DNA from: a virus
DNA: 64,000 bases
Virus record (IMG/VR): IMGVR_UViG_3300013126_000010
Span: 96,001 to 160,000 of that record
Strand: one strand, 5' to 3'
Shown here: positions 9,084 through 49,626 of the stretch, piece after piece
How positions within the stretch are numbered: position 1 is the stretch's first letter
Layout: the number at the start of each line of letters is the position of its first letter
Translations under genes and position numbers: made by a program
The notes under the pieces: generated by a model
Database searches by the model: none
The model's input: only the letters and a program-made list of their open reading frames with translations
What the model was told of the DNA's origin: nothing

Positions 9084-10154
9084 TTATTTACAGTTTAAGA
9101 GTTGGTGGTAAACAATTGTAGCTCCTATTTGTACTTTTGCCAAACATGATTGATATGGGTCGAACATAAATGGTGCCATTTTCCAGTTCATATCAGTATC
9201 AATTACCAAATCATGACTATCATCCCACACAGAGGCCACATTGTAGTTATTGATAAAATATGTTTCATCGGTACTTTCATCTAATACCAATTTACCACCA
9301 ATAATCACCATATTGTTTTTTACAATGGCTGGATTAAAAACCACTTTATTAATAGGATCTGTTGTGTCATACACGTAAATATTAAGAACAATTGGTTTTT
9401 TAGATACTAATTTTTTTGAAGTATCTGGTTCTTTTGCTTTTAATGTCACAGTGTGCCACAAATTTGCTTGTTCAACGGTTGGGGTCCAAATTATATCAAT
9501 AGTTGGAATTCCAGTGTGTTCAGATGTGTAAATATCAGATAATGTCGCACCAATTGGTAAAATACCATCTAGCGTAATCACATCTTCTTGCTTATCATAA
9601 ACTTGGATTGATATTTTAGATTCAACTCCAGCTTTAATATTCCAAACACTTTCTGTTGAAAAGATAACTGGGGCACTGTTTGGTAGTTTTGCATTGGTTT
9701 TATGCACAACTGGCTTAGGTGTCGCAGTAGGTTTAGGAGTAGAAGTTGGTGTAGGTGTTGGTGGTGTGGTTGGTAATGGTGTACTTGTTGGTAATGGTGT
9801 ACTGGTTGGAACCGGGGTACTTGTTGATGGCGTAGTTGGTTTGGGTGTAGATGTAGGTTGGGCAGTTGGTGTTGCAGTAACGGTCGGTTTTGTCGTGGCA
9901 GTTGGGTTGGGAGTTGCTGTTGCGACTGGTGCTGTACAAACAAATGAACCATTGTATGCTCCTCCCATTGTTGGGTATTTTGCTAAACAAAATGCAGCAA
10001 TACCGTTTTTACCAGTAGTCTTTAAACTACCAGATGGGTAACCAGCGTGGCATGCAGCACAGTTGGATGTACCATTTGCAGTGGCTATAGCCGGAGTCGC
10101 ATAGGCATCTACTCATACAATAGATGCCATTAACAATACAATATATTTAATCAT
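9084..10154 (-). pseudogene. Exported c-type cytochrome-like protein with Pro/Thr linker; in-frame TGA at 10113-10115
   Basis: Manual translation from ATG 10154: MIKYIVLLMASIV*VDAYATPAIATANGTSNCAACHAGYPSG..., in frame with the tracked ORF from 9968; CxxCH motif and PT-rich linker. Confidence 0.75.
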
Positions 10155-17685: not shown

Positions 17686-18195
17686 TTAAGAAACTTGACA
17701 TCCAAGATTGCGCAACTCTTTTCTAAATTCAGTTGCAACTTTTGCATCACTGCATTTGATGTGTTGGATATTTATTTTAGAAGCATCCCAATAATCTTTT
17801 GCTTCTTTAAAACCAAATCCCGTGAATGTTGTAATACATTTAATAACTGGCACAGCATTACCTGCACTCTCTGCAGCGGCAGCACGAAATGCTACCGTGT
17901 GGGATGTTCCACCTGACATCATTGCCATAAAAATTTTATGTTTCAATGATTTACCGACTGCTTCTCCCATTGCATCCCAAACTTCCATTCCTTTAGTTGG
18001 ACCATAATATGCAGTCAATGATGTCACGAATTGAATTCCATCGGCAATTACTGATTCCATTTCATGATCTGGTTCAGGATTTTCAACCACATCATGTGAA
18101 ATACAACTTGGGTCATGTTCAATGATGCCATCGATTCTTGGGTGACCGCAGCAAGAACAATAACCAGTAATTTTACCACTCATAATAATCTCCAA
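17686..18195 (-). CDS. Protein with ribosomal L7/L12 C-terminal-like domain
   Basis: GNAVPVIKCITTFTGFGFKEAKDYWD resembles KIxVIKxVRxxTGLGLKEAKDLVE. Confidence 0.65.
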   Translation of the reverse strand: MEIIMSGKITGYCSCCGHPRIDGIIEHDPSCISHDVVENPEPDHEMESVIADGIQFVTSLTAYYGPTKGMEVWDAMGEAVGKSLKHKIFMAMMSGGTSHTVAFRAAAAESAGNAVPVIKCITTFTGFGFKEAKDYWDASKINIQHIKCSDAKVATEFRKELRNLGCQVS

Positions 18196-18265: not shown

Positions 18266-19327
18266 TTATGCTAAGTCAACATCATATCGACCTGAGTTGA
18301 TAGTATCAAGCATAATCGAAACTGGTGTAAAGTTTTCAGCTGCTAAAATACTACGTAATATACTTGGACTGTATCCACTTACCATTGCAGTTCCTGTTTG
18401 ATCAAATTTTACAGGTACATGGCCTGCATCATTCAGGTTCCAAAATATGATCGACGGCAAAGTAAATCCTGCTTTTTCATATTTTCTTTTTACCATTAGT
18501 AAAGCACAATCATATTTATTACATGCCTGATTAAATTGCATGTCAGAGCATATTAACAAATATTTTGGCATTTCTTCATCGGTCAATTTATTATCCAAAC
18601 CAACTTTCAAAATAGCATCGAATGCTGATGCCAATGATGTACTCATCCCCCATTCCATTCGGTTCAATTGATTCATTTTTTGAATCAAGTTTCCTTTCAG
18701 AACTTCAATACGAGAATTTTCAGAGAATGTCAATACAACATCTTTAAATGGTCCAGTATTTTTATCTGCACAGTATAAACCAAGTGCAATAGAAATATCT
18801 ATACAACGTAGGTTAGGATTGCCACCGACTGAACAAGTCATTGAACCAGAAACGTCTGCCATAACCAAAATATTACCACCAGTCATATAGTTAGGCAATG
18901 CTTCCCATTGTGCCAATGCAACGTCCCTATCACCAGTATTAACTGATTTTACCACATCATGAGGATAAATTGCACTAGCATTAATTTTGGTATCACCTGA
19001 TACCAATCCAGCTTTATATGCGGTATATTGTTCAGGAGCATTTTTATTAAATGCTTTTTGGTATCGTGCTGCAGCTACAGATGGTACATGTGAAAACTCA
19101 ATGGAATCCCATTGTTGGGCGCACATCAAATCCTCCACCGTTTCTGACATATCAGCAACAGTTTTTCTATACATCTTAGGTGATAGTTTGAAGAATTGTC
19201 TCAATTCTATAGCAATGTCTTTTTTAGATGATTTTTCACGAGGAAGCCATTTACAGCATGTTCCTGCAGTGTTTAATTGTTGTTTTAACAGGTTAGTAAG
19301 TTCGATTTTAGAAGTCATATTATTCAC
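18266..19327 (-). CDS. DUF2828-vWA (Ro60/TROVE-like) protein, C-terminal part
   Basis: CKWLPRE, VETLMC-like region, IEFSHVPSVA, MADVSGSM (MIDAS DxSxS), SDMQFN, IIFWNL, VSGYSP. Confidence 0.8.
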   Translation of the reverse strand: MNNMTSKIELTNLLKQQLNTAGTCCKWLPREKSSKKDIAIELRQFFKLSPKMYRKTVADMSETVEDLMCAQQWDSIEFSHVPSVAAARYQKAFNKNAPEQYTAYKAGLVSGDTKINASAIYPHDVVKSVNTGDRDVALAQWEALPNYMTGGNILVMADVSGSMTCSVGGNPNLRCIDISIALGLYCADKNTGPFKDVVLTFSENSRIEVLKGNLIQKMNQLNRMEWGMSTSLASAFDAILKVGLDNKLTDEEMPKYLLICSDMQFNQACNKYDCALLMVKRKYEKAGFTLPSIIFWNLNDAGHVPVKFDQTGTAMVSGYSPSILRSILAAENFTPVSIMLDTINSGRYDVDLA

Positions 19328-19466
19328 TCTGGAAAGTTATTAAAGAAAGTATACTTTATTATATCAGGTATATAGAAAAAATCAAGAAATATTTTGATAA
19401 ATAATAGATGTAGATCGCGATATGGGGATATCCATCTACTTTAACAGTCATTAGGAGACTATCAAC

Positions 19467-20399
19467 ATGAATATTTATTCAAACTTTAAACCAACATATT
19501 TATATATCAAAACACACAACGTTACTGGCCTTCAGTATTTTGGTAAAACAATAAATGATCCATTTAAATATAAAGGTTCTGGTAAACGCTGGTTAAATCA
19601 TTTAAAAATTCATGGAAATAATGTCACTACTTCAGTAATTGGTTATTACACTGATGTTAATTCCTGTATCGATGTTGCTATTAAATTTAGTGCAGAACAT
19701 AATATAGTAGAATCAACTGCATGGGCAAATATTATACCAGAAAATGGAATTAATGGTGGTGGAACTGCATCACAACTGCACACTGTTCCTGTAAGAGAAC
19801 AGGCTGCATTAACATGTTTAGCAAGATATGGTAAAGAACACCCCTCATTAGTTCCATCGATAAAATTAAAAGCCAAGGTCACTCATATACAAAGATATGG
19901 TGACCTTGGGTGTAATTTAAATTCATCCAACTCCATCGCAAAACGGAATAAAACGAATTTAATTAAATACGGTAATGCATGTGCCGCCAACAAAGATGGT
20001 AATAAATCATCAATAATTGCACAGAGAACATTAAGATCTAGACCAGTCATTTTGGAACTAAAATTTCATGCATATAAAAGAAAAATATCACTACCATCTA
20101 ATTGGGTGTATAAGGACGACGACTGGCTGAATAACACATTATCTACCATATTAAAACTACCTGTATATGCTCCTGATATTAGTATGTACAATAATAGTCA
20201 ATTATCTAGATATAACAAGTTAAATAGACCACAAGTAATCAGATTATTAGAAATATCAAATTTATTGGATATAAAATTAGGTAAAAACTGGTTTCAACAA
20301 TCTGATTATTATATTTCTAACCTTCTTGACGAAGTTTTAATAACAATTTCTGACAGTCATCTTCCGACATCTCTTCAATTTTTGAAAGATATAATTTAG
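19467..20399 (+). CDS. GIY-YIG-like homing endonuclease inserted antisense within the DUF2828 gene
   Basis: FKPTYLYIKTHNVTGLQYFGKT, YKGSG, WANIIPENG; paralogue of 12609..13502. Confidence 0.8.
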   Translation: MNIYSNFKPTYLYIKTHNVTGLQYFGKTINDPFKYKGSGKRWLNHLKIHGNNVTTSVIGYYTDVNSCIDVAIKFSAEHNIVESTAWANIIPENGINGGGTASQLHTVPVREQAALTCLARYGKEHPSLVPSIKLKAKVTHIQRYGDLGCNLNSSNSIAKRNKTNLIKYGNACAANKDGNKSSIIAQRTLRSRPVILELKFHAYKRKISLPSNWVYKDDDWLNNTLSTILKLPVYAPDISMYNNSQLSRYNKLNRPQVIRLLEISNLLDIKLGKNWFQQSDYYISNLLDEVLITISDSHLPTSLQFLKDII

Positions 20400-20808
20400 C
20401 TTGTATTCCAGCATCCAATGCTTCTTTGATCAATCCATAAGCTTGATCTTTAAAATGTTTGGTAGTGAAAATTAACAAATCATCAAATCTACCATATTCT
20501 GGAACATATGGAATTACTTTTTCCAGCATTTCTGGATGGTTTGTTTCCATATATTGCAGAATATCACGGAAGATTTTACGTTCACCTGCACCACCACGAA
20601 CATCACGTGCCCATAATGCCACCTTGATGGCTAATTCTTTATCTTCTTGAAATGCTCGTTCGAATTGTGGGGTAATATCTTTTCCACGTGATGCGCCTAT
20701 TGCGAAAAACAAATTTACCAAGTTGTCACAAGAAGTTGTGTAAGCTACCATACCATTTGCGGTAGTGGTTTCGAATTGGGTGTTTTGTACTGCTGTTGAA
20801 AAGCTCAT
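20317..20808 (-). CDS. DUF2828 (TROVE-like) protein, N-terminal part
   Basis: TANGMVAY, LFFAIGASRG, WARDVRGGAGER, VPEYGRFDDL. Confidence 0.8.
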   Translation of the reverse strand: MSFSTAVQNTQFETTTANGMVAYTTSCDNLVNLFFAIGASRGKDITPQFERAFQEDKELAIKVALWARDVRGGAGERKIFRDILQYMETNHPEMLEKVIPYVPEYGRFDDLLIFTTKHFKDQAYGLIKEALDAGIQAKLYLSKIEEMSEDDCQKLLLKLRQEG

Positions 20809-20819
20809 GTTTCACCTAT

Positions 20820-20859
20820 CAGGTTAATGTTAATTTTAAGTTGTTGCTGTATATAACCT
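20820..20859 (-). ncRNA. Y RNA-like scaffold copy 1 (minimal, in DUF2828 leader)
   Basis: AGGTTATATACAGCAA...ATTAACCTG; TTGACA-17-TATAAT directly upstream. Confidence 0.65.
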
Positions 20860-21377: not shown

Positions 21378-21543
21378 CAGGGTAAAGATTACGATTATTT
21401 TCCTTGGCTAACGTGGTCCCAAGTTTGTTTGCTCATATGTATTATACCTTCACAGATCTCTATGACTTTCGCCAACATCTCCAGTATTGAATACCCGATT
21501 TCAAACTCCATTAATATAATTATGGTTTTGCTGAATTTACCCT
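21378..21543 (-). ncRNA. Y RNA-like scaffold copy 2 (long insert)
   Basis: AGGGTAAATTCAGCAA...TTTACCCTG. Confidence 0.7.
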
Positions 21544-27413: not shown

Positions 27414-27446
27414 TCTAGTAGCACTACGGTATGTTAAAGTATTTTG

Positions 27447-27518
27447 CTCCCCCATCTCGATTCGAACGAGACTCACGATGCTTAACAGGCATGCCGCACA
27501 CCTAGTGCGTTCAGGGGA
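27447..27518 (-). tRNA. tRNA-Asn(GTT), no encoded CCA
   Basis: TCCCCTG/TGGGGGA; CATGC-CTGTTAA-GCATC; TCTCG-TTCGAAT-CGAGA. Confidence 0.85.
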
Positions 27519-28454: not shown

Positions 28455-28790
28455 AATTTGGTGGATTGTTTTTTCGTTACTGTATAAGTACAATCCACCT
28501 AAAACTTATTTGCTATTACTTATGCAGTAATAGCAAATCCAGCATAAACGTCATCGTTTGCGTTTAATTTTTTGATTTTTACATCTTTCTCGATGATTCT
28601 AAATTATTCTTTCTCAACCACGTCGAAAACCTTTCATCCCCATAATAAGAGCATTGTTGCTATAATTAGGATTGGGTTCAGGTGTTATCGCTAACAAGGG
28701 AGTTCAATGCCCTTATTGTGGAGATGGGCGTATCGAAACGCCGTCCGCAATTTTTACTTAAATAATCTTTCAGCCATTTCTAGCAACGAA
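28455..28790 (-). ncRNA. ssrA: Circularly permuted (two-piece) tmRNA
   Basis: 3' tRNA-like part GACGGCG-TTTCGATA-CGCC-CATCTCC-A (28719-28746) lies upstream of 5' part GGGGATGAAAGGTTTTCGAC (starts 28641); G3-U70; tag GCAAACGATGAC...TAA = ANDDVYAGFAITA* (28561-28520) with the stop in an 11-bp hairpin loop. Confidence 0.92.
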
Positions 28791-29135: not shown

Positions 29136-29789
29136 TTAATCTTTACCACTTAATGACAACAGTATTTGAAGAATGTTCAAGAACATATTCAAAATATCCA
29201 AATATAGTTGGACAGTTGCTCTAATGTAATTAGTTTCACCACCATTAATAATTTCACTGGTGTCATACAATATAAATCCAGAGAATATTACAACGGCGGC
29301 AAATGATACCATCAATTGTAATCCAGGAATATGAAATATAATCCCTGCAATACTGACCACGATTAGACCGATCAATGCTACGAATAATGTTCCACCTAAA
29401 AATCCAAAATCTTTCTTAGTGATGGTCACATAAGACGATAATGCGATGAATACAAGAGCAGTAAGACCGAATGCATATGCGATTAGTTCTGGACCATTAA
29501 CAAACTGTTCAGTAACTTGATGCAGTACTGGTCCAAGTGTTAATCCTTCAAATCCAGTGAACAACAGTACACAAACCAACCCAAGTGATGATTCTGCAGT
29601 TGCCATTGTAAGAAATAACAATCCAATTGCTACTATCAATTGCACCCATATATTAATGGGTTCGATATTCATCAGTACTGCCACCCAAGCTGAAATGGCT
29701 GTGTTGAGTAATGTACCGGATAATAACCAGTATGTATTACGTAGTACTTTGTTCGTTTCGAAAGTTGAATCTATTGTTGTAGCTGCCAT
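29136..29789 (-). CDS. yccA: Bax inhibitor-1/YccA family membrane protein
   Basis: KVLRNTYWLL, FTGFEGLTLGP, KKDFGFLG, LYDTSEII.GGETNYIRATVQLYLD. Confidence 0.92.
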   Translation of the reverse strand: MAATTIDSTFETNKVLRNTYWLLSGTLLNTAISAWVAVLMNIEPINIWVQLIVAIGLLFLTMATAESSLGLVCVLLFTGFEGLTLGPVLHQVTEQFVNGPELIAYAFGLTALVFIALSSYVTITKKDFGFLGGTLFVALIGLIVVSIAGIIFHIPGLQLMVSFAAVVIFSGFILYDTSEIINGGETNYIRATVQLYLDILNMFLNILQILLSLSGKD

Positions 29790-29927: not shown

Positions 29928-31820
29928 TCATACTCCAAAGTATGTTGTCAACTCGTTTATCATTATAACTGGCTGTTCATTTTCAGTAAATATTTTAGGA
30001 ATTACGTGCTGATACATATATACATCTTCTTGAATATTTGATAATTCGGTTGGATTATATATCCTATAAAGATCATCAGTAAAATTATTGGTGTGTTCAT
30101 GATGATACTCATAGAATTCATAAAAACTATTAATTATAGAATCCCCTTTCAAAATATCCATTAGTTTTTTACGAGAATTTACTGTTATTTCAGCAAGTCT
30201 CATATACCCCATCCCCATTTTTCTGAATGTTCTTTGACTTTTTTATTTGCCAGCATCATTTGATCAATCAATGATTGTAATTCTTCATCTGACATTTTTT
30301 TTAAGTTTGGATTTAATTTATTTCCATATACATCGAACATATCTTCAGTATTAACACTGTCATCATCATTTAATTCATTTATCATGACAAATTTTCCTTA
30401 TTTTCTAAATCGTGGCATGTTACCAATATAACCATCAGGAATAAAGCATTCAAGCATTGGGATAAGAGTACTTAGTTCAATTACTGGTGTTTTTTCTACT
30501 AATTTATATTCACCATCTATTAAAAGATAATATACATCATCAACATGATGATCCAATTGTGGTTGGAATATTGTTTTTAGGTCTGTTAACGTCATTTTTA
30601 TATAAACCTGTTGTTCATATGTTATTTTCTAAATAGTGGCACGATCAATAGATTTTATTCATTATTTCATTAAAGACATCATTGTCTGTATAAGTTTGAT
30701 AATCTACTGTAAAATCAAAAACATCGCTTATGTCGTTACCGAATACATTAATTAATGCAGTTCTCCACTCATTCATACAGGAATCATACTCAGATGGATC
30801 GATTTCATATGAAGTATAACCAATACTATTAATCCCGTCAGCTGGTCTACATGAAAAATCATGAACTCCATATTTAGACTCTAGTTCATCAATAATTTCT
30901 TCACATTCTTCTGATGGTTCAAAGAAGAAATCTTCAAAAAACTCAGATTCGGCATTAAATAAAAAACCTTTCCAGGTGTGTTGTTTGGTTTTTTGATTGT
31001 AAAAGTTAAAATAGAATACTGAATTATGTGTTGGCATGATATTTACCTAATTGATGTAAGTGTTATTTTATTTTACCATGGTTATCATCGTTTGGCAAGT
31101 CTTTTTTATCTTTTTTACCCCAAATTCTATCCCAGTTGTCGTCGAATTTTTTCTTATCTACTGGTCTAGGCTTTGAACCTTTACCACCTTCCCATTGTGA
31201 CATATTATCCCCATTTTAATAAAAATAATGTTTCATGATTTGGATTTTCAAAAGAGAATGTCCTATATGGTGGATTTCGAATGGCAACGGGAGAGATCCA
31301 TTCTGTATAATAACCAATCCCTATATTTTCGTTTAACCATTGGTCCAAATCTTCACCATTTTGGGTTATTTCCCAAATTTTATCATTATTGATGCGTATT
31401 TTATTTATCGACATACTTCTGCATCATATTCTTTTTCAGTCATGCAAATGATTTTAACAGTATGAAAATGATTTGCCAATACATCATCTTTCAGTCTATC
31501 TTTTTCGGCATCTTCAAAATTGAAGTAGAACTTTTCAGTGGTTTTGTGCATATCAGAATAAATGATACCATCTTTTCGTTTTTGCATTATTACATAAACT
31601 TCATATGCCATTATACTAACTCACTTAATTTGTCAACAGCTGATTCAATATTGTCAATGGCTTCATCACAATTATTTAAATGATCTTTAACTTCATATAA
31701 CAATTCACGCAATTTATCACGTTCTTTTGACAATGATTCTTTGTGTTTTGTCAATTCTTTGATAGCTTTATCGATATTGTTTGTTTTTTTCATAATTATA
31801 TACAGGTTGATGTTTTTCAC
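29928..31820 (-). other. Run of small hypothetical ORFs, including untracked 31063-31203 (MSQWEGGKGSKPRPVDKKKFDDNWDRIW)
   Basis: Tiled ORFs 29928-30218, 30200-30385, 30398-30595, 30645-31037, 31205-31414, 31405-31611, 31611-31820. Confidence 0.5.
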
Positions 31821-31864
31821 ATTTCAGGTATGATTGTTTATTTGCGGTAATCAACCTAAATTAG

Positions 31865-31988
31865 CAGGATAGTTTTTATACGTTGCTCTACCAGTCTGAG
31901 CTAACTTCTCCATAGTATTTGGGAGAAGTATGGGATTTGAACCCATGACCAACGGCTTAACAGGCTATTTAATTGCTGTAACTATCCT
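31865..31988 (-). ncRNA. Y RNA-like scaffold copy 5 enclosing circularly permuted tRNA-Asn
   Basis: AGGATAGTTACAGCAA-..CTGTTAA-GCCGTTGGTC-ATGGGTTCAAATCCCAT-ACTTCTCC-loop-GGAGAAGT-TAGCTCAGACTGGTAGAGC-AACG-..AACTATCCTG. Confidence 0.88.
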
Positions 31989-32000
31989 AATTCATAATTT

Positions 32001-32183
32001 TTATTCTACAATTTTACCACTTTTTACAAATCTAGCAGTATTTGCTTGATCTTGAATAGCTTTGATCATCAATTTACGCCAAACTTTATCAGGTGATGAT
32101 GATACTTGTTTAGGAATTTTAACCTTAGCCTGTGGTTTTGATTTTTTAACTACTTCTTTTACTGGTTGTTTTTTTGCTGCCAT
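32001..32183 (-). CDS. Small basic protein
   Basis: Lys-rich ORF. Confidence 0.5.
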   Translation of the reverse strand: MAAKKQPVKEVVKKSKPQAKVKIPKQVSSSPDKVWRKLMIKAIQDQANTARFVKSGKIVE

Positions 32184-32245: not shown

Positions 32246-33706
32246 TTATTTACTGATTTCAATATGATTACCAGCTGTTAGTTTAACAATCTGTGGTTTT
32301 GATGCAATAAATCTAGTCTTAGTTGAGAATGAGATGTGTTCATACGGACTATCATCAGTTACATTCATTTCACCACCAATCATTATAGTTCCAATCACAT
32401 CAATAACATGATTTGAAGTAAAATCCCCTCTAAATCTCGTAAACATGTCCCCTAGAAGATGTTTTATTGTATTTGCCTTGTATGTTACTCGTTGATCTGC
32501 GGTAATCCCATACATTGTTGCACCAAATCTTGGTAATCGGAATTTGAATTGGGTATCATCGGGTTGTGGAATCCAGTATGGGTAAACTATTTGCAAGTTT
32601 TTCTTTTCCTGATCATCAAATTCATGAATACCATCACCAAGTAGAGTCGCAGAAACCACAACTATCTTATTTGCCCGTAACAATGCCTTAATGGTGTTTA
32701 CATTCGCCGTAGTGGGAATAATAACCTCACTAACTGGGTTATTTGCAGCATATTTAAGAACTGTTTTAGCACCAACGGCATAATCATTGTCTTGATCACC
32801 AATTATACTAACTGATTTGGTTGGATATTGGTGTGTAACATAATCACCAGCTATCATTCCTTCACCATATAACCCTTCATTCCAATAAAAAGTATAAGTT
32901 GATGGTGTTTTACCCGGTACATTAGTAATCGGCAGTAATGTTGGTACTTTATGTGACTCTGAAAAGTCTTGAATTGGTTGCCAGTTATCAGCAAATCCCC
33001 CAACAATCATAAATGGTGGATTATTTTTGTAATATTCTTCTAATTGCGATGACCATGTATCAGTTGGACCAGTCAATTTCCATGTATTATATGATATTTT
33101 TCTAAAATCTGATATAACTTTGTTACCTTGTGAATTATGAATGGTAAAAAATTCTTTTAATTTATCATCAAATGCTGTTTTATCATAATCATTGGTAGAA
33201 TCTGTGATAATGGATACTATATTAACAGAATCTGATGTCACACCTACCAATGGTTGTGCATCCATAGATTTTAAATATTCAATTAGACTAGCAATTTCAT
33301 TATCATTATATGAAAATGTTGGCATAATAGGATTTAATTTTCTACTTGCTGGATCTATTCCCGTTTTTATAACCTTTTTAATGGTTGATTCAGTATATCC
33401 TGGTCGTGATGGTATTTTATGAAACGTATTTTGTAAATATGTTTGAATAGCTTTATCCATGGAATTTCGGTCAATGATGGTTTCTCTACCAACTACGGGG
33501 ATACCATTATATTGTTCTGATAAACTTTTATAATTGATTGGCAATACGATCACATTACCTTCTGGCATACCTTTACCAGATTTTAAATGGCATTCAACAC
33601 ATGCTCGTTGACCATGTAATCCATTATTATAGATTTGTGACCCAACATTGTCATTAGCCATGACAACACCACTCATTACACTTAATAACATTACGATCTT
33701 TTTCAT
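32246..33706 (-). CDS. Exported c-type cytochrome fused to periplasmic-binding-protein-like domain
   Basis: Signal peptide, CVECH, TGIDPASRKLNPIMP; C-terminal alpha/beta domain. Confidence 0.75.
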   Translation of the reverse strand: MKKIVMLLSVMSGVVMANDNVGSQIYNNGLHGQRACVECHLKSGKGMPEGNVIVLPINYKSLSEQYNGIPVVGRETIIDRNSMDKAIQTYLQNTFHKIPSRPGYTESTIKKVIKTGIDPASRKLNPIMPTFSYNDNEIASLIEYLKSMDAQPLVGVTSDSVNIVSIITDSTNDYDKTAFDDKLKEFFTIHNSQGNKVISDFRKISYNTWKLTGPTDTWSSQLEEYYKNNPPFMIVGGFADNWQPIQDFSESHKVPTLLPITNVPGKTPSTYTFYWNEGLYGEGMIAGDYVTHQYPTKSVSIIGDQDNDYAVGAKTVLKYAANNPVSEVIIPTTANVNTIKALLRANKIVVVSATLLGDGIHEFDDQEKKNLQIVYPYWIPQPDDTQFKFRLPRFGATMYGITADQRVTYKANTIKHLLGDMFTRFRGDFTSNHVIDVIGTIMIGGEMNVTDDSPYEHISFSTKTRFIASKPQIVKLTAGNHIEISK

Positions 33707-33801
33707 ATTTTTTCGTCTGTAGTTAATAAAATTACTTCTTAAATACCCTGCATAAGATATTTAAGAAGTGACCCTCAAGAGAAGGTCACTAATATTACCG
33801 A

Positions 33802-36800
33802 TTATTTCGCAACAGTCGGTGAGGTTGGGCTAGAAGGAACACTCGCACCAACTGCGTTTTTAGATTGAACTCTAAACATGTATGTTACATTGTTAGACAA
33901 TCCTTTAACAGTACCAGTTGACACGTTTGGTCCCAACGCAACAATAGTTGATGCATTGGTCCATCCTTTTCCAGCTGTACAGCTTGCGATCTTTGTTGGA
34001 GTGCTTGCAGTACATTTTTGTATTACAAATGTGGTATTGTTGTTTGATGTATCAGTCCATGTTACATCTACTGTATATGGACTACCAACAGTACCTGATA
34101 CAGCACCATTAATTATAGGAGTTGATGGTTTTGCCTTCATATTAACTACTGCAATATTACTAGCTGGACCAGCAGTATTACTTATCAATGGTGTTACTCT
34201 GAATGAATATGTCACATTTTTAGCTAATGCCATCGTAGACACAAAATTCATGTTATTACCACTACCACTAAAAGTACCAGCTAATGTTGTCCAGTTATTA
34301 GTAGTCGATGGTGAATATTCAACGGTATAACCAGTTTGCCCTGTTGACGTGTTAGTCCACGTTAAGGTAGTACCATTAACAGTCGTTCCAGATGCTGATG
34401 TAATAACACCTGACAAATCGGTTACTGCATTAAGAGTTGACCCAACAATATTTACTGAGTATGATACCGGTGCAGAACTTACACCTTTGCTATCGGTAAC
34501 GGTTACAGTAAAGTTAAATGTCATCCCGTATACTGGAGTTCCACTTAAAACACCATTTGCAAATGTCACACCATATGGAACGGTACCTGTCAGATTCCAT
34601 GTGTATGGACCTGTTCCACCAACAACACCAATGGTTTGGCTATATGCTGTACCAATTGCACCAGCTGGTAATGTAGCTGTAGTAATTGATGGAGTCAAGT
34701 TTTGACCAATTACTACGGTGTACGATTGTGATGCCACAGATGGCGTTGGATTTGCACTATCTGTTGCAACAATACTAAATGTATACGTTCCTGCAGTAGT
34801 AGGTGTGCCACTAATTACTCCATTGGCAACAGATAACCCTGGTGGAACTGTACCAGTAGTTGACCATGTATATGGTGTAATACCACCGCTTACACTAATT
34901 GGTTGACTGTACGCTACATTAATATTACCGTTTGGTAACACTGTTGTCGCAATTACTGATTTAGTAATTACAATGGTAAACGCTCTTGCAGATGATTTAA
35001 CATTTTTACTATCAGTAGCAGTGACTGAGAAGTTAAATGTACCTGCTGCAGTAGGTGTTCCGCTAATAATACCATTAGTCAATGTCAACCCATTTGGCAA
35101 TCCACCAGTCAATGTGAATGTATATGGACCAGTACCACCACCAGCTGTTACCGTTTGGTTGTAAGCATTACCCATATTACCATTTGGTAACGATGATGTC
35201 AATACACTCGGAATCACACTTGATGTTCCAACAGTTAAGGTAGACTGAACTGTTGTTCTTTTCACTGGATTCGAATAATCAGAAACAGTTACACTAAATG
35301 AATATATACCAACAGCAGTAGGTGTACCACTTAACTTACCCGATGCATTCAATGTCATTCCTGGTGGCAATGCCCCTGCAGATACTGTGAATTTATAAGG
35401 AGCAGTAGGTGTTACAGTGTTAGTCAAACCACCATCAGCAGTGTAAGTTACTGGATTATATGCTACACCCAAAACACCATCAGCTAATGCTGGTGCAGTG
35501 ATGTTTAATGGCATAACCATTACCAATGGACGCATCATATCGTGCTCTTCATGTCCCAACAAGTGACAATGCCAGATATATTCCATACCATAATCAGTTA
35601 ATGTATTCAACAATGTCATACCAGCACTATCAGTCATTGTAACCCCCAATGGTGATGCAGGATCTAATGGTCTAATAGAGTTTGGTAATTTCCATGGCAA
35701 ATATGGTTGCACTGGTCTTACAGCAATGAATGTATCCAATGCTGGTGACAATCTAATTGTTTCTTTCATACCTTGTTCTTCTGGGTCAATCGGAAAAACA
35801 GTGCCATCGATTGCAATACGACCAATTAATTGAACATTTACCAAATGGAAGTGCATATAATGTTGGTCAATACCTTGGTGATCAAGTCTCCAAATTTGGG
35901 TACCATCACCCAATGTACCAACAATCGGATAATTACCAGTACCATCAACAAATGTTGGATCAACAATTTCTGTTGGTGGGTTGAAGAAGCTGTATGGATT
36001 AGCTACACCAGCTTGTGGCCCAAGATTTGGCAAAGCACCACCCAACAAAGCGTTCATTCTACCATATTCCATGTCCCAGTTCTCGATAATAGCTTTATCT
36101 TGAATTGGTAATACTACATTAGTTGCACTCAACGTATTTGTATTTGGGTCCCATGGTTTAAATGAAAATGATGGGTCTGCCAAATTTGGTTGTTGTTCTG
36201 GAATTGTTTTACCATAAGCAGCACTATATGATGATGTTGGTACCAATGGTGCTTCTTGTGCCGTTTTGTATATTGATGGCCATGATGTTAACAATTTACC
36301 CATATTAAATGGAGCATCAGGTGTTCCATTAGTCATGCCAACCGTTTTAACAGCATCACAGTAATACAAACTCATCGTGTCAGTAATATTTGGATCGCAT
36401 ACATTGACTTGCATAATAGTTCTAGTGTTAGGACCATATCCTGCCAACGTAGATGGTGCGCCACCTTGGAATGTATTATCTGGGTTACCTGCATAATAAT
36501 CATATCGTTCATCAAAGAATGGGTATGGTGCAGGAGCATCATTATACAATATAACAGTTTTTCCTTTATATTTTGTAAAATCTACCAATGTGTCATGACG
36601 TTCCGCAGGTCCAACAACCAAACCATGTTCTTTTACACTTAGAGTAAAAATAACTCGACGTGATTGTTCATATGTTACTGGTTGAGTTGGTAATGTTTGT
36701 GGTAATGGTAACCATCCACCTTCATTTGCCAATATAGTAAATTGTGGACCAACACTTGCAGGATCAGGAGCACCACCATTGCGACCATCAGCAGGCCATG

Positions 36801-39081
36801 TTGCTGGATATGCTGGATTCAACATTGCTGGTACCATTTTTACTTCTGCATTTGGTGCTGCCAGTGCAATGGCACCAGAACCAATACCACCATTAGAATC
36901 AGTAATAGTAACAGTAGGAATATCATCATACGCGGGTGATGCAGGTTGAGTAACAACCAAATCAACAATAGTCTGATCTAAAACTGCAGTTGCTACTGGA
37001 GTTACTGCACCAACCCCGTCAATAGATACTGTCGGTGCTGATGTATATCCGCGACCACCATTACTAACAGTGATTCCAGCGATATTTCCATTTGCATCCA
37101 ATGTTACAAACGCAGTTGCACCTGAACCACCACCACCTGTTATCGTAACAGTAGGTGTTGCCAAGTATGCAGGTGTATTAGTTAATGGATCTACTGTTAT
37201 TGATGATACTATTCCTGAAACCACTGCAGATACTTGAGCAGGAGTACCAATAACGCCATTTTTCCAACCACCATTAAGGGTAACAATAGGATTTGTATAT
37301 CCTGTTCCACCTTGAATCAATGATAATCCAATAGGGTCTGCAACATACCAGTTTAATGATAATGTGCGATCATCTGCACCATTCAATACTTTAAGTCTAT
37401 GTGTATTAGGAGTTACAGATAGTTTTGGCCATGCTGTTCCATTAACAGTCGCACTATCCATAAATGATTCTGGAGTGCTAGTTGGATTAGTTGTACCCGG
37501 AACTTGTGGTGGCTCATTTGGTGTAGAACCATCTGGATTATACAACAAGTTTGCAATTGGACCAACAATCTGGGTTGTAATTGGAGGATAAATCCATGTA
37601 TTGTAATCCCAGCGACCAACATCATTAACACCACCTATTGACGTTGGGTGTTGGTTAGGCATATAAACATGTGGTAACCACAAATCACCATCCGTTGGGA
37701 CTGCCGGTGTAGTTGCTGTAGCAGGATGTGAACCCCATGCCCATGTTGGATCTTGTTGAGCAATTCTAGTAGGATCTACCCATGTTTTATCTTGAATGAT
37801 CAACGGGATACCAATACCATCAGGCATTTTTGCTAATCCTGGGTTACCACCAGAATTGTTGGTACCATTAATCAAGTCATCTTCAACAGGATCTTTTAAA
37901 ATATAACCAGCTGCCATACCATCATACACATTCAATCTGGTAATACCATATGCATGGTCATGATACCACATGAATTTTGCAGACTGTTGGTTAGTGTAGT
38001 ACATTGTGGTAGAACCTTGACCTGGATCATTGGTTGCACCAGGAACCGAACATACTAATTGTGCAGCACATACATCAATTGATTGACCTTGAGCATCGAA
38101 CCACATATCTGGAACAAATTTCAGACCAGTAGCACGTTTGTTAGGGTTAGTTTCACCAACTGCTGCGGTCCATTGATGCGGAGTACCATCAGAAATATAA
38201 GGTGTTGCACCACCATGTAAATGCACGGTAATTCTATTTTGAGAATACTGTGGACCAGCTCCCATAACAGTGTCATCAACCGGTAATGGTAAATTACCTG
38301 CCACACCAGTAGGCAAATAGTTGGTAAATTTCACCCTAACTGGTTTATTTTTATCAGCAATGATGTTTGGTCCCAAATAGTTTGGAGCATGTACAGCAAA
38401 TACCTGATTACCCGCTAAATCTTTAATTGGGGTGCTATCTGGATATGTTAATGCAACATGATCAGACACTTTACCTTGTGCTGTTAGCGTTGACATTACT
38501 GCAGGAGTTTCAATTTGAACATATCCACGCAACGTTGTTGGTGATAATGCGCTGTGCATTTTTTCAGTATATTGAACTACTGCAATCTCATAATAATCAG
38601 ATGCATATTCAACACCATCTTGTGGAACAGCTGGGGTTGCAGCACCACCATATGTTGTAGTGTCAGGCACAGCTACAACCAATTCCATGCCATTGGCATT
38701 AGCATATCCTACTCGTGGCAAATCATCAATGAATTTTTTCAATCCACCAGAAACAATGGGTGCTCCTGTAAGAGGATCTAGTATATATGCTTTCGTTATA
38801 GGATCGGTTGCCAGTGTTGGTTGTGGTGAGTTTGCATAGTTCGGGGTGGTACTGAATTAATCAGGTTGTACTCCAAAAGTAAACTGATTCCCTGCACCAA
38901 TACCAGAAGAGAATGTAGGAATATAGGCAGTAGGATAACATGGACCAACACCATATGATTTTTGACCCGGACAGGTTTGCCCATAGCCATTACCACTCCC
39001 CGGATTTTGAAGGACTGCAAATGATGATTGCGACATTGCGACCATCATTGCAGTAGTTAATAATTTATATTTTCGCATCAT
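33802..39081 (-). pseudogene. Large exported multicopper oxidase with Ig-like/FN3 repeats; in-frame TAA at 38857-38859
   Basis: HLHG, WYHDH, HYMHFHL, WHCHLLGHEEHDMM copper motifs; ORF 38857-39081 (signal peptide) is in frame with 33802-38742 across one TAA. Confidence 0.85.
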
Positions 39082-39521: not shown

Positions 39522-39666
39522 CAGGATGTATTAATTTTTTGACAGTCGCGTATACCACTTTCGCCACTTACCAGCCACCCGGAGGCTTATGGTCATTAGA
39601 TGGGACTTGAACCCACACGTCTTTCGACAACTGTTTTTGATAAATTAAATTTGCTGAAAACATCCT
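39522..39666 (-). ncRNA. Y RNA-like scaffold copy 6 enclosing permuted tRNA-Leu-like module
   Basis: AGGATGTTTTCAGCAA..CAAAA-ACAGT-long variable arm-GTGGGTTCAAGTCCCAT..linker..TGGCGAAAGTGGTATACGCG-ACTGT..TACATCCTG. Confidence 0.8.
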
Positions 39667-45962: not shown

Positions 45963-46016
45963 CAGGATACTTTTTATTTTCGCCAATGAAATTTTTTAAT
46001 TTGCTGAATGTATCCT
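45963..46016 (-). ncRNA. Y RNA-like scaffold copy 7 (short hairpin insert)
   Basis: AGGATACATTCAGCAA..TTTCATTGGCGAAA..AGTATCCTG. Confidence 0.75.
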
Positions 46017-47702: not shown

Positions 47703-47763
47703 CAGGATAGCTTTTACGGTTTTGATTAGAAGTCAAATGTATTAAGCTTGCTGAAACTATCCT
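47703..47763 (-). ncRNA. Y RNA-like scaffold copy 8 (Arg-TCT anticodon stem-loop insert)
   Basis: AGGATAGTTTCAGCAA..TTTGA-CTTCTAA-TCAAA..GCTATCCTG. Confidence 0.8.
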
Positions 47764-47803: not shown

Positions 47804-47857
47804 CAGGATGTATTTATTTTCGCCAAATGAAATCTTTTAATTTGCTGTAAACATCCT
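47804..47857 (-). ncRNA. Y RNA-like scaffold copy 9
   Basis: AGGATGTTTACAGCAA..TTTCATTTGGCGAAA..TACATCCTG; TTGCAC-17-TATAAT 7 nt upstream (47865-47893). Confidence 0.8.
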
Positions 47858-48320
47858 AAAATTTATTATAGCACGTTTTTATAGATTGTGCAACTATCTT
47901 TTCAAAATATTGAAATATTCTTTACGTTCCATATCGAAACTGTTATATCTATACATTATATCATCATAAATGAATCCAAAAATGATTATTGTGAACACTA
48001 CTGCGCTAATACAAATATAAGTCACTATTACATATAATAACCAAGTTGGATTATACCAATACAATAATCCTAATCCAACAAATATGGCAAATAAACCGAA
48101 TATCGTATGATAGTTATTATGATATAGCCATATGATAAAATTGGTATATTTTTTTAATCTGGATCACGTTTTTCAAATTTACTGTTTGATTGTTTAGATT
48201 GCTGAAATGATCCAATATATAACAACAAGAACTGGCAGAGATATTCTGATTTGAACAGAAACTAGATCAGTCAAAGTGACCTGTGCTAACCGGATTACAC
48301 TATATCTCAATTATTTTTTA

Positions 48321-49510: not shown

Positions 49511-49626
49511 CAGGGTAGCAAATATGTTTTACCGCTAAACTACCATAGTGACCAACTCTATGGCTGGGATTCGAACCCAGGACTTTTCTTTACGATAGAA
49601 ATTATTAAAATTGCTGAAACTACCCA
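49511..49626 (-). ncRNA. Y RNA-like scaffold copy 10 enclosing permuted tRNA module
   Basis: GGGTAGTTTCAGCAA..TTTCT-ATCGTAA-AGAAA..CTGGGTTCGAATCCCAG-CCATAG-loop-CTATGG-TAGTTTAGCGGTAAAAC..GCTACCCTG. Confidence 0.85.

What the first reader, a model, noticed from the sequence alone, without database searches (positions are those of the whole stretch)
31865..31988. Complete circularly permuted tRNA-Asn inside the scaffold
Seen: the order is anticodon loop CTGTTAA, variable region, T arm (ATGGG-TTCAAAT-CCCAT), acceptor 3' strand ACTTCTCC, about 10-nt loop, acceptor 5' strand GGAGAAGT, D arm, then ACG. The 3' half precedes the 5' half and the acceptor is closed by a loop. The retained anticodon loop suggests recent capture from a real tRNA gene. 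An alternative is a permuted tRNA gene matured through a circular intermediate, as known in some red algae and archaea.
Basis: partly seen in the sequence, partly recalled or inferred. Interest (0 to 1): 0.8.

Follow-up and report, generated by a model that had tools for sequence, protein, structure and literature searches.

The report
Phage Y-like RNA mimicking tRNA-Asn
This 124-base phage RNA gene is a complete but rearranged tRNA-Asn look-alike held in a conserved "handle"; it is most likely a partner RNA of the phage's Ro60-like ring protein, not a working tRNA gene or a recently captured one.

Summary
On the minus strand, 31988-31865 reads: 9-bp closing stem, ACAGCAA, an Asn-type anticodon loop (CUGUUAA), variable loop, T arm, 8-bp acceptor closed by a 10-nt loop, D arm, ACG, A-rich linker, closing stem.

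What I add: the anticodon stem is composite. ACG after the D arm and GC before the loop together pair with GCCGU, so all four tRNA arms are present.

It is not a one-off. A covariance model built from 36 other phage contigs, without this copy, scores it at 93.5 bits (E 1e-20). The Rfam YrlA model gives only 39 bits, below its cut-off.

The family lies on the same strand as a DUF2828/DUF7788 gene, usually within 2 kb. That protein's predicted fold matches Ro60. This window carries the gene, split, 11 kb away, plus about ten RNAs with the same handle.

The Asn-type loop recurs in at least 20 other contigs. All have a perfect, covarying stem, and their acceptor stems differ between lineages.

Recent capture is not supported. 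Maturation through a circular intermediate is unlikely.

It is best read as a new variant of the YrlA-type Y RNA, described in the literature as resembling a circularly permuted tRNA. This scan has noted the same handle family many times on other phage genomes.

The parts
31980..31988 (-). Handle, 5' strand AGGAUAGUU
   Evidence: Pairs 9/9 with 31874-31866. Handle pairs covary across the family: 4 pair positions, all with changes on both sides.
31973..31979 (-). Conserved handle motif ACAGCAA
   Evidence: WC(A)GCAA follows the 5' stem in every same-handle RNA of the window and in RNAs next to the Ro60-like gene in relatives that were found without using the motif.
31964..31972 (-). Linker UUAAAUA, then GC (tRNA positions 30-31, lower part of the anticodon stem's 5' strand)
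   Evidence: GC pairs with G39 C40 of GCCGU. The composite stem scores 5/5, and is 20/20 perfect in Asn-type relatives.
31957..31963 (-). Anticodon-type loop CUGUUAA (C32 U33 G34 U35 U36 A37 A38)
   Evidence: Identical to the loop of all 18 real tRNA-Asn genes in the phage set. The same loop is present in relatives from the loop-agnostic scan (L074, L107; L083).
31947..31956 (-). Anticodon stem 3' strand GCCGU (39-43) and variable loop UGGUC (44-48)
   Evidence: CGU pairs with ACG 31883-31881. Helix 27-29/41-43 is 82% paired with 4-5 pair types, and no filter was applied to it. C48 can pair with G15.
31930..31946 (-). T arm AUGGG / UUCAAAU / CCCAU
   Evidence: The YrlA model aligns it as its T stem-loop.
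31904..31929 (-). Acceptor stem closed by a loop: ACUUCUCC, CAAAUACUAU, GGAGAAGU (7 bp plus a G-1:C73 pair)
   Evidence: All 7 acceptor pairs in the family covary on both sides (note the set was filtered for pairing). No CCA is encoded.
31884..31903 (-). U8 A9, D arm GCUC / AGACUGGUA / GAGC, A26
   Evidence: G18 G19 and A14 are present.
31881..31883 (-). ACG (27-29), upper part of the anticodon stem's 5' strand
   Evidence: Pairs with CGU 31954-31952.
31865..31880 (-). A-rich linker UAUAAA, handle 3' strand AACUAUCCU, terminal G
   Evidence: An A-rich run followed by CYUG recurs in the family.
31803..31857 (-). Neighbouring 55-nt RNA with the same kind of handle (AGGUUGAUU ACCGCAA ... CAUCAACCUG), 7 nt downstream
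   Evidence: Weak match to the Dictyostelium Class I RNA model (20.4 bits). Tandem small-plus-large pairs also occur in L004, L107 and L082.
18266..20808 (-). Presumed protein partner: DUF2828/DUF7788 Ro60-like gene, split in two by an insertion of about 1.1 kb
   Evidence: Pfam hits. The pieces match residues 5-139 and 141-469 of an intact relative. The AlphaFold model of the relative gives Ro60/TROVE structures as its top 12 PDB matches.

Best explanation
The element is a small non-coding RNA of the Y RNA kind, with two modules.

Module 1 is a 'handle': a 9-bp stem joining the 5' and 3' ends, the invariant ACAGCAA on the 5' side, and an A-rich run plus CCUG on the 3' side. It is shared by about ten RNAs in this phage and by hundreds of phage contigs. 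It is most likely the docking site for the phage's Ro60-like ring protein (DUF2828 + DUF7788/vWA).

Module 2 is a complete tRNA-Asn mimic in circularly permuted order. The acceptor ends are joined by a loop. The RNA chain enters and leaves through a nick in the 5' strand of the anticodon stem, between positions 29 and 30. The T arm, acceptor, D arm and a 5-bp anticodon stem with a canonical CUGUUAA loop can therefore still fold into the tRNA L-shape, while the handle hangs off the anticodon stem as the third arm of a three-way junction.

By analogy with Ro60-Y RNA particles, the tRNA-shaped module would bring a tRNA-recognising factor to the ring protein, or compete for that factor. Because the anticodon arm is kept under selection, the factor probably reads the Asn anticodon loop.

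Shown here: the structure, family membership, covariation, genomic linkage to the Ro60-like gene, and the Ro60-like predicted fold.

Inferred: that the handle binds that protein, that the RNA is expressed, and what the tRNA part recruits.
For: Structure. The Rfam YrlA model aligns T arm, acceptor stem-loop, D arm and closing stem at 39 bits, E 1.5e-6.

Family membership: model R1, built from 36 other contigs without this copy, gives 93.5 bits, E 1.2e-20.

Covariation: 96% of cells paired, covariation score 0.863 against 0.20 in shuffles and at most 0.17 when partners are slid.

Anticodon arm: the composite stem is 5/5 in 22 of 37 members against 6% of shuffles, and by my count from that output 14 of 17 local loops have U33 and a purine at 37. 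20 of 20 Asn-type members have a perfect stem with 3-4 pair types at each position.

Linkage: in relatives the handle RNAs sit directly upstream of the DUF2828 gene (L004: RNA ends 9562, gene starts 9581). 25 of 80 loci found by an RNA pattern alone hold the gene within the fetched flank, with 28 of 28 RNAs on the gene's strand and 24 of 28 within 2 kb. All 92 R1 matches in 52 gene-anchored loci are on the gene's strand.

Protein: the AlphaFold model (pLDDT 77) matches Ro60 of Thermus phage phiLo, D. radiodurans Rsr and Xenopus/human Ro60 over about 500 columns, E 1e-8 to 6e-5.

Literature: YrlA RNAs are encoded near Ro60 on the same strand, occur in phages, and resemble permuted tRNAs with closed acceptor stems (PMC4201824; 10.1101/312249; PMC12135203).
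Against: No binding or expression data exist.

The Ro60-like gene here is 11 kb away and interrupted, and Pfam TROVE finds nothing in the record.

The handle lacks the GNCGAA motif of known Ro60-binding modules, and the YrlA score is well below Rfam's cut-off. Sub-threshold YrlA matches also occur in 13 of 14 control genomes.

No sigma-70-type promoter was found directly upstream of this copy.

The proposed cloverleaf is 5 kcal/mol above the nearest-neighbour minimum-energy fold.

Three helices in the covariation set were filtered for pairing, and the invariant motifs were partly fixed by my search pattern.
Confidence: 0.65

Rival explanations
1. It is a real permuted tRNA-Asn gene. The precursor is cut in the acceptor loop (RNase P at the 5' side, trimming and CCA addition at the 3' side). 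It then works in translation, either as a two-piece tRNA held together by the handle, or as a normal tRNA after the handle is removed and the ends are ligated.
For: All four arms and all tertiary-contact nucleotides are present. ARAGORN calls tRNA-Asn(GUU) after un-permuting. The acceptor has the 7 bp (+1) that made M. smegmatis YrlA an RNase P substrate with CCA addition in vivo (PMC4201824). The phage also encodes a permuted two-piece tmRNA that needs comparable processing.
Against: A standard tRNA-Asn(GUU) is already present at 27446-27518. There is no bulge-helix-bulge at the junction. No RtcB, Rnl2-type ligase or CCA-adding enzyme is in the record, which is only 52% complete. No CCA is encoded, and position 73 is a paired C. 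Family members at equivalent places have acceptor hairpins closed by loops of 1-4 nt, non-canonical 'anticodon' loops, or no anticodon arm. The same handle carries non-tRNA cargo.
Confidence: 0.07
2. It is a stand-alone decoy, independent of the Ro60-like protein. The RNA soaks up a host factor that reads the tRNA-Asn anticodon loop, for example a GUN-specific anticodon nuclease of a defence system or a modification enzyme such as Tgt. The handle serves only for stability or processing.
For: The canonical Asn loop and stem are kept under selection in many contigs, while acceptor stems differ between lineages. The mimic's body is closer to the textbook bacterial tRNA consensus than the phage's own unusual tRNA-Asn (my judgement from the sequences). 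This copy lies 11 kb from the Ro60-like gene.
Against: The invariant handle motif and its strict same-strand linkage with the Ro60-like gene argue for a specific protein partner. Many family members lack an anticodon arm. No nuclease target is known for this host.
Confidence: 0.13
3. It is a relic of a recent capture. A tandem tRNA-Asn duplication was trapped between the handle halves, and the anticodon loop is a leftover without function.
For: A window of one repeat unit taken from a tandem tRNA duplication gives exactly this permutation. The loop is identical to real tRNA-Asn loops.
Against: The body is not Asn-like. No cellular donor exists apart from two archaeal MAGs. The Asn-type design is spread over at least 20 diverged contigs with compensatory changes in the anticodon stem.
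Confidence: 0.05
4. It is a DNA-level element: the inverted repeat is a recombination or cassette-boundary site (attC-like) flanking the GC-richer oxidase cassette, and the tRNA likeness is incidental.
For: Same-handle elements lie on both sides of the 32246-38742 gene block (31865-31988 and 39522-39666).
Against: Covariation preserves RNA pairs including G-U, and preserves the tRNA tertiary nucleotides. All copies are on one strand. No integrase was seen near the element in the ORFs I scanned. One sibling has a consensus promoter placed at the start of its handle.
Confidence: 0.03

Closest known systems
YrlA (Y RNA-like A; Rfam RF02553), partner of bacterial and mycobacteriophage Ro60/Rsr (Chen et al. 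2014, PMC4201824; Wang et al. 2018, 10.1101/312249)
   Same: A modular RNA with a 5'/3' closing stem and a tRNA-like domain in the order T arm, loop-closed acceptor stem, D arm. It keeps the tRNA tertiary nucleotides. It is encoded on the same strand as a Ro60-type gene, occurs in phages, and often sits in tandem with a smaller sibling (yrlB-yrlA).
   Different: The handle has ACAGCAA and an A-rich run instead of GNCGAA(N)G. The partner gene is DUF2828/DUF7788, not Pfam TROVE. In YrlA the 'anticodon stem' simply continues into the Ro60-binding stem; here a separate 5-bp anticodon stem with a canonical 7-nt Asn loop branches off. The acceptor is a tRNA-length 7-8 bp. The RF02553 score is 39 bits against a cut-off of 69.
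Permuted tRNA genes of Cyanidioschyzon merolae and some archaea (my own knowledge: Soma et al. 2007; Chan et al. 2011)
   Same: The 3' half precedes the 5' half, the acceptor ends are joined by a short linker, and the cloverleaf is complete including the anticodon loop.
   Different: Those precursors close their termini in a bulge-helix-bulge that the splicing endonuclease cuts, and they yield needed decoding tRNAs. Here the termini form a conserved protein-handle-like stem with no bulge-helix-bulge, the setting is bacterial and phage, a normal tRNA-Asn is also present, and siblings lack tRNA parts.
Two-piece (permuted) tmRNA, Rfam RF04321; one is present in this window at 28520-28777
   Same: The gene order is T arm, acceptor 3' strand, intervening loop, acceptor 5' strand, with a helix replacing or joining at the anticodon side.
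   Different: There is no G3:U70 pair (here G3-C70), no tag reading frame and no pseudoknots. The tmRNA model gives only 15.4 bits. A full D arm and anticodon arm are present.
Class I RNAs of Dictyostelium (Rfam RF01414)
   Same: A short stem joins the 5' and 3' ends and is followed by ...UUACAGCAA..., with an A-rich 3' side and a terminal CUG. The model hits the cargo-less siblings at 45963-46015 (32.1 bits, E 2.8e-5) and 47804-47856 (24.9 bits).
   Different: The family is eukaryotic. All scores are below the 41.5-bit cut-off. Class I RNAs carry no tRNA-like cargo, and no link to a Ro60-like protein was tested here.
D. radiodurans Yrn1 and band-7-associated tRNA-like RNAs of RtcB repair loci (as cited in PMC4201824 and 10.1101/312249)
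   Same: These are tRNA-like non-coding RNAs that keep an anticodon-arm-like hairpin and are tied to RNA surveillance or repair proteins.
   Different: They have a different arm order (D, anticodon, T in Yrn1), a 6-nt loop in Yrn1, and different partner modules.

Membership tests
YrlA (RF02553) | tRNA-like domain in the order T arm, loop-closed acceptor stem, D arm, enclosed by a 5'/3' stem | tested here: met
   (full-length alignment to model positions 1-114).
YrlA (RF02553) | Reaches Rfam's gathering score (69 bits) | tested here: not met
   39 bits. Sub-threshold matches also occur in 13 of 14 control genomes.
YrlA (RF02553) | Ro60-binding module with GNCGAA(N0-1)G on the 5' strand | tested here: not met
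   The 5' strand carries ACAGCAA, and no GNCGAA occurs anywhere in 31865-31988. Some siblings do carry GGCGAAA in their cargo.
YrlA (RF02553) | Encoded within about 4 kb of a Ro60 (TROVE) gene and on the same strand | tested here: inconclusive
   The strand is the same, but the gene is 11 kb away, split, and is DUF2828-type; Pfam TROVE is absent. In relatives, 28 of 28 are on the same strand and 24 of 28 within 2 kb.
YrlA (RF02553) | Bound by Ro60/Rsr; modified by TruB/DusA | not testable with these tools
   Needs co-immunoprecipitation and modification mapping.
Phage 'stem-ACAGCAA handle' RNAs next to DUF2828 genes (no Rfam family; my model R1) | Closing stem, WCAGCAA, A-rich 3' side, CYUG end | tested here: met
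Phage 'stem-ACAGCAA handle' RNAs next to DUF2828 genes (no Rfam family; my model R1) | Significant full-length match to a family model built without this sequence | tested here: met
   93.5 bits, E 1.2e-20, model positions 1-120.
Phage 'stem-ACAGCAA handle' RNAs next to DUF2828 genes (no Rfam family; my model R1) | Same genome and same strand as a DUF2828/DUF7788 gene with a Ro60-like fold | tested here: met
   Gene at 18266-20808 (-). Fold evidence.
Permuted tRNA genes (C. merolae / archaeal type) | 3' half upstream of 5' half, with a complete cloverleaf | tested here: met
Permuted tRNA genes (C. merolae / archaeal type) | Bulge-helix-bulge at the joined termini for the splicing endonuclease | tested here: not met
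   The junction is a perfect 9-bp stem followed by an asymmetric 14-nt / 6-nt internal loop. There is no 3-nt bulge / 4-bp helix / 3-nt bulge.
Permuted tRNA genes (C. merolae / archaeal type) | RNA ligase available for circularisation; the product supplies a needed decoder | tested here: not met
   No RtcB or Rnl2-type ligase in the record, which is only 52% complete. A canonical tRNA-Asn(GUU) is present.
Permuted tRNA genes (C. merolae / archaeal type) | Mature CCA-ended, aminoacylated tRNA | not testable with these tools
   Needs tRNA-seq or an acid gel.
Two-piece tmRNA (RF04321/RF00023) | G3:U70 alanine identity pair, tag reading frame, model score above cut-off | tested here: not met
   Pair 3-70 is G-C. 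The tmRNA model gives 15.4 bits against a cut-off of 47.
Dictyostelium Class I RNA (RF01414) | Short terminal stem plus the CCUUACAGCAA motif; score above 41.5 bits | tested here: inconclusive
   This element has GUUACAGCAA (9 of 11). The model does not report it, which I attribute to the long cargo. Cargo-less siblings reach 32.1 and 24.9 bits, and the neighbour reaches 20.4 bits.

The most novel reading that the evidence does not exclude
Phages use a second, undescribed branch of the Ro60/Y-RNA particle. Its RNAs display complete tRNA mimics with specific, selected anticodon loops (here Asn). These act as bait or decoy for anticodon-reading host factors such as tRNA-cleaving defence nucleases. 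The anticodon shown would then tell which host tRNA, or which defence, the phage is countering.
Probability: 0.2. Interest if true: 0.85.

Novelty: new variant of a known kind. Interest (0 to 1): 0.6.

Why it matters
What the tRNA-like domain of bacterial Y RNAs binds has been open since 2014. This family keeps a full anticodon arm, with a canonical Asn loop conserved across many diverged phages. That points to a partner that reads the anticodon, and it gives a direct handle for experiments with loop mutants, pull-downs and nuclease assays. It also ties a large protein family with no assigned function (DUF2828/DUF7788) to Ro60 biology, and shows that large phages carry whole sets of such RNAs among their tRNA genes. 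For genome annotation, these elements explain 'scrambled tRNAs' that tRNA finders miss.

Tried and rejected
- ARAGORN and Rfam at gathering thresholds do not call the element.
- Megablast of 4 kb around it against 50,697 phage records found nothing.
- Pfam TROVE found nothing in the genome. The partner was only recognised through DUF2828/DUF7788 and a fold search. Sequence search against PDB gave only E about 0.75 to TROVE proteins.
- No sigma-70 promoter lies directly upstream of this copy.
- RtcB, Rnl2-type ligase and CCA-adding enzyme are absent from the record.
- The flanking small proteins have no relatives in the RNA-pattern loci, so no syntenic orthologue was found. Homology rests on the RNA itself.
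- The tRNA-Asn ancestry test was negative, and the search for a cellular donor was essentially negative.
- Paper searches for DUF2828 and for permuted tRNAs in phages found nothing relevant. The 2026 preprint on three new tRNA-mimic families concerns other RNAs. PMC10870794 is not held.
- I considered an attC-like DNA site, a tmRNA relic and tandem-tRNA false positives, and rejected them. The acceptor is a closed hairpin, and no full tRNA lies on either side.

Full report
CONTEXT. The window is bases 96001-160000 of a 184.7-kb IMG/VR virus record, estimated 52% complete. It is AT-rich, and the ORFs listed around the element lie mostly on the minus strand. It holds 14-15 tRNA genes and a permuted tmRNA (Rfam RF04321, 104.7 bits, 28520-28777). 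The finding lies in a roughly 180-nt gap between two small minus-strand ORFs (32001-32183 and 31611-31820).

OBSERVATION. On the minus strand, 31988-31865 reads in this order:
- AGGAUAGUU
- ACAGCAA
- UUAAAUA
- GC
- CUGUUAA
- GCCGU
- UGGUC
- AUGGG-UUCAAAU-CCCAU
- ACUUCUCC
- a 10-nt loop
- GGAGAAGU
- UA
- GCUC-AGACUGGUA-GAGC
- A
- ACG
- UAUAAA
- AACUAUCCU
- G

The nucleotides that make the tRNA elbow and core are all present, read directly from the sequence: U8, A14, G15:C48, G18 G19, G46, U54 U55 C56, A58, G53:C61.

Together with the GC just before the loop, it gives a perfect 5-bp anticodon stem: A27-U43, C28-G42, G29-C41, G30-C40, C31-G39. The 5' strand of this stem is nicked between positions 29 and 30, and the two chains leave there to form the handle. 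Rejoined in that register, ARAGORN calls tRNA-Asn(GUU). The minimum-energy fold recovers the handle, the T arm and the acceptor hairpin (z = -2.8). The full proposed cloverleaf is 5 kcal/mol above the minimum-energy fold. That does not argue against it, because the energy model ignores tertiary contacts.

WHAT IT IS. A permissive Rfam scan gave one notable match: YrlA (Y RNA-like A), 39 bits, E 1.5e-6, full length, but below the 69-bit cut-off. YrlA RNAs are partners of bacterial and phage Ro60. [quoted passage not shown] Sub-threshold YrlA matches are not specific, since they occur in 13 of 14 control genomes. I therefore looked for independent evidence.

(1) A handle family.
- A note from this scan pointed to sibling elements.
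- A regular-expression search confirmed about ten minus-strand RNAs in the window with the same design: a stem of variable sequence, WC(A)GCAA, an A-rich run, then CCUG. Shuffled sequence gives 0-4 such matches.
- Their cargo ranges from almost nothing (53-nt RNAs) to a second T-acceptor-D module at 49511-49626.

(2) A Ro60-like gene.
- Pfam TROVE finds nothing. Two minus-strand ORFs do match DUF2828 and DUF7788.
- Intact relatives of 457-532 aa occur in 52 viral contigs.
- An AlphaFold model of one relative (pLDDT 77) has Ro60/TROVE structures as its 12 best PDB matches. These include Thermus phage phiLo Ro60, D. radiodurans Rsr and Xenopus and human Ro60, over about 500 columns at E 1e-8 to 6e-5.
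- In the window the gene is cleanly split. The pieces match residues 5-139 and 141-469 of the relative. An insertion of about 1.1 kb between them holds an opposite-strand ORF.

(3) Linkage between RNA and gene.
- In the closest relatives, the handle RNAs lie directly upstream of this gene. In L004, a 51-nt RNA and then a 117-nt RNA of the same architecture as mine end at 9562, and the gene starts at 9581.
- A scan of IMG/VR with an RNA-only pattern hit more than 120 contigs. Of the 80 loci fetched, 25 hold the gene within the fetched flank. All 28 RNAs in those loci are on the gene's strand, and 24 are within 2 kb.

(4) Membership.
- A covariance model built from 36 of these RNAs, without mine, scores the element at 93.5 bits, E 1.2e-20, end to end.
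- All 92 matches of that model in the 52 gene-anchored loci are on the gene's strand.

(5) Covariation.
- On 37 sequences, 96% of cells pair, and the covariation score is 0.86 against 0.20 for shuffles.
- Three helices in that set had been filtered for pairing. The upper anticodon stem had not, and it is 82% paired with 4-5 pair types.

THE ANTICODON ARM. This is where the element departs from described YrlA RNAs, in which the 'anticodon stem' merely leads into the Ro60-binding stem.
- In the family sample, which was not chosen by loop sequence, a perfect composite 5-bp stem is found in 22 of 37 members against 6% of shuffles. By my count from that output, 14 of 17 local 7-nt loops have U33 and a purine at position 37. 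The 'anticodons' are diverse and include GUU, UGU, UUU, UCU, UAU, GAU and UCC. Further loops seen by eye in the raw matches include GCC, GUC, GAA and CAU.
- The nick position varies from 26/27 to 29/30.
- Other members have no anticodon loop and look like classical YrlA.
- A second scan for the Asn-type loop hit more than 115 contigs. In the 19 that passed strict parsing, plus mine, all 20 have a perfect stem with 3-4 pair types at every position, including across the nick. Their acceptor stems differ between lineages.
- The loop equals that of all 18 real tRNA-Asn genes in the phage set.
- The arm is therefore under selection and is not a leftover.

- Recent capture. The body is no more Asn-like than it is like other isotypes. 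The exact stem-loop exists only in two archaeal MAGs among 185,579 species genomes.
- A permuted tRNA gene matured through a circle. There is no bulge-helix-bulge. No RtcB, Rnl2-type ligase or CCA-adding enzyme is in the (incomplete) record. A normal tRNA-Asn(GUU) sits at 27446-27518. No CCA is encoded. Siblings carry the same handle with other cargo or none.
- One part cannot be excluded. [quoted passage not shown] Cleavage in the acceptor loop, giving a two-piece RNA, remains possible.

MECHANISM. The most likely mechanism (about 0.65) is this. The handle docks the Ro60-like ring protein. The tRNA-Asn-shaped module then recruits a tRNA-recognising factor, or competes for it, and that factor reads the anticodon loop. 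Structure, family membership, covariation, linkage and the protein fold are shown here. Binding, expression and the identity of the recruited factor are inferred. A decoy role against anticodon-specific host nucleases is the most interesting reading and is untested.

COMPARISON AND NOVELTY.
- The kind of RNA is known: Y RNA-like tRNA mimics, including in phages.
- Three features have no Rfam family and no description in the papers I could search: the ACAGCAA handle instead of GNCGAA, the DUF2828-type partner, and the complete, selected anticodon arm.
- The handle resembles Dictyostelium Class I RNAs. That model hits two cargo-less siblings at 32.1 and 24.9 bits, below its cut-off.
- This scan has already noted the same handle family on many other phage genomes. 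My tests agree with those notes, and I add the composite anticodon stem and the conserved Asn-type subfamily.

LIMITS.
- There are no expression or binding data.
- The invariant motifs are partly imposed by my search patterns.
- E-values from my model are rough.
- The record is about half a genome.

Noticed in passing
window 18266-20808 (-), insertion about 19265-20405: The Ro60-like DUF2828/DUF7788 gene is cleanly split between residues matching 139 and 141 of an intact relative. The insertion is about 1.1 kb and holds an opposite-strand 310-aa ORF (19467-20399, weak DUF7487 match). No group I or II intron model matched at Rfam thresholds. It could be an intron, a mobile insertion or a two-piece gene.
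   Followed up: partly
window 20820-20859 (-) and upstream to about 20895: A mini handle RNA (AGGUUAUAU ACAGCAA ... UAACCUG) lies directly before the start codon of the Ro60-like gene. A consensus TTGACA-17-TATAAT promoter precedes it, placed so that transcription would start at the handle.
   Followed up: partly
window 49511-49626 (-): A second RNA with T arm, loop-closed acceptor and D arm, and the same handle (R1 64.3 bits; YrlA model 25.9 bits). It has no clear anticodon loop.
   Followed up: partly
window 45963-46016, 47804-47857, 47703-47763, 48159-48214 (-): Short (about 53-61 nt) cargo-poor handle RNAs. The first two carry GGCGAAAA, which resembles the classical Ro60-binding motif GNCGAA, and they match the Dictyostelium Class I RNA model at 32.1 and 24.9 bits.
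   Followed up: partly
window 39522-39666 and 21378-21543 (-): Longer handle RNAs (145 and 166 nt) with other cargo. The first has a T arm. Both contain GGCGAAAG, an exact GNCGAANG motif.
   Followed up: no
window 28520-28777 (-): A phage-encoded circularly permuted (two-piece) tmRNA, Rfam RF04321, 104.7 bits.
   Followed up: no
window 27446-27518 (-) and other tRNAs: The phage's own tRNAs are unusual. For example, tRNA-Asn has an atypical D arm and no encoded CCA. The mimic at 31865-31988 has a near-consensus bacterial tRNA body.
   Followed up: no
window 32246-38742 (-): Just upstream of the element lie a 486-aa protein with weak cytochrome c and periplasmic-binding-protein matches and a 1646-aa ORF. 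Same-handle RNAs lie on both sides of this block.
   Followed up: no
window 17686-18195 (-) and 29136-29789 (-): A 169-aa protein with a ribosomal L7/L12 C-terminal domain (26.3 bits, just over the cut-off) lies next to the Ro60-like gene. Separately, a Bax1-I/BI-1 family membrane protein scores 181 bits.
   Followed up: no
L019 11260-11814 and L028 10148-10700: In more distant relatives, four tandem RNAs matching model R1 lie directly downstream of the DUF2828 gene.
   Followed up: no
L005 9031-9129, L025 9109-9208: These handle RNAs have cargo in the normal tRNA order (D arm, anticodon-like arm, T arm), with the handle replacing the acceptor stem. This is the converse design, reminiscent of D. 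radiodurans Yrn1.
   Followed up: no
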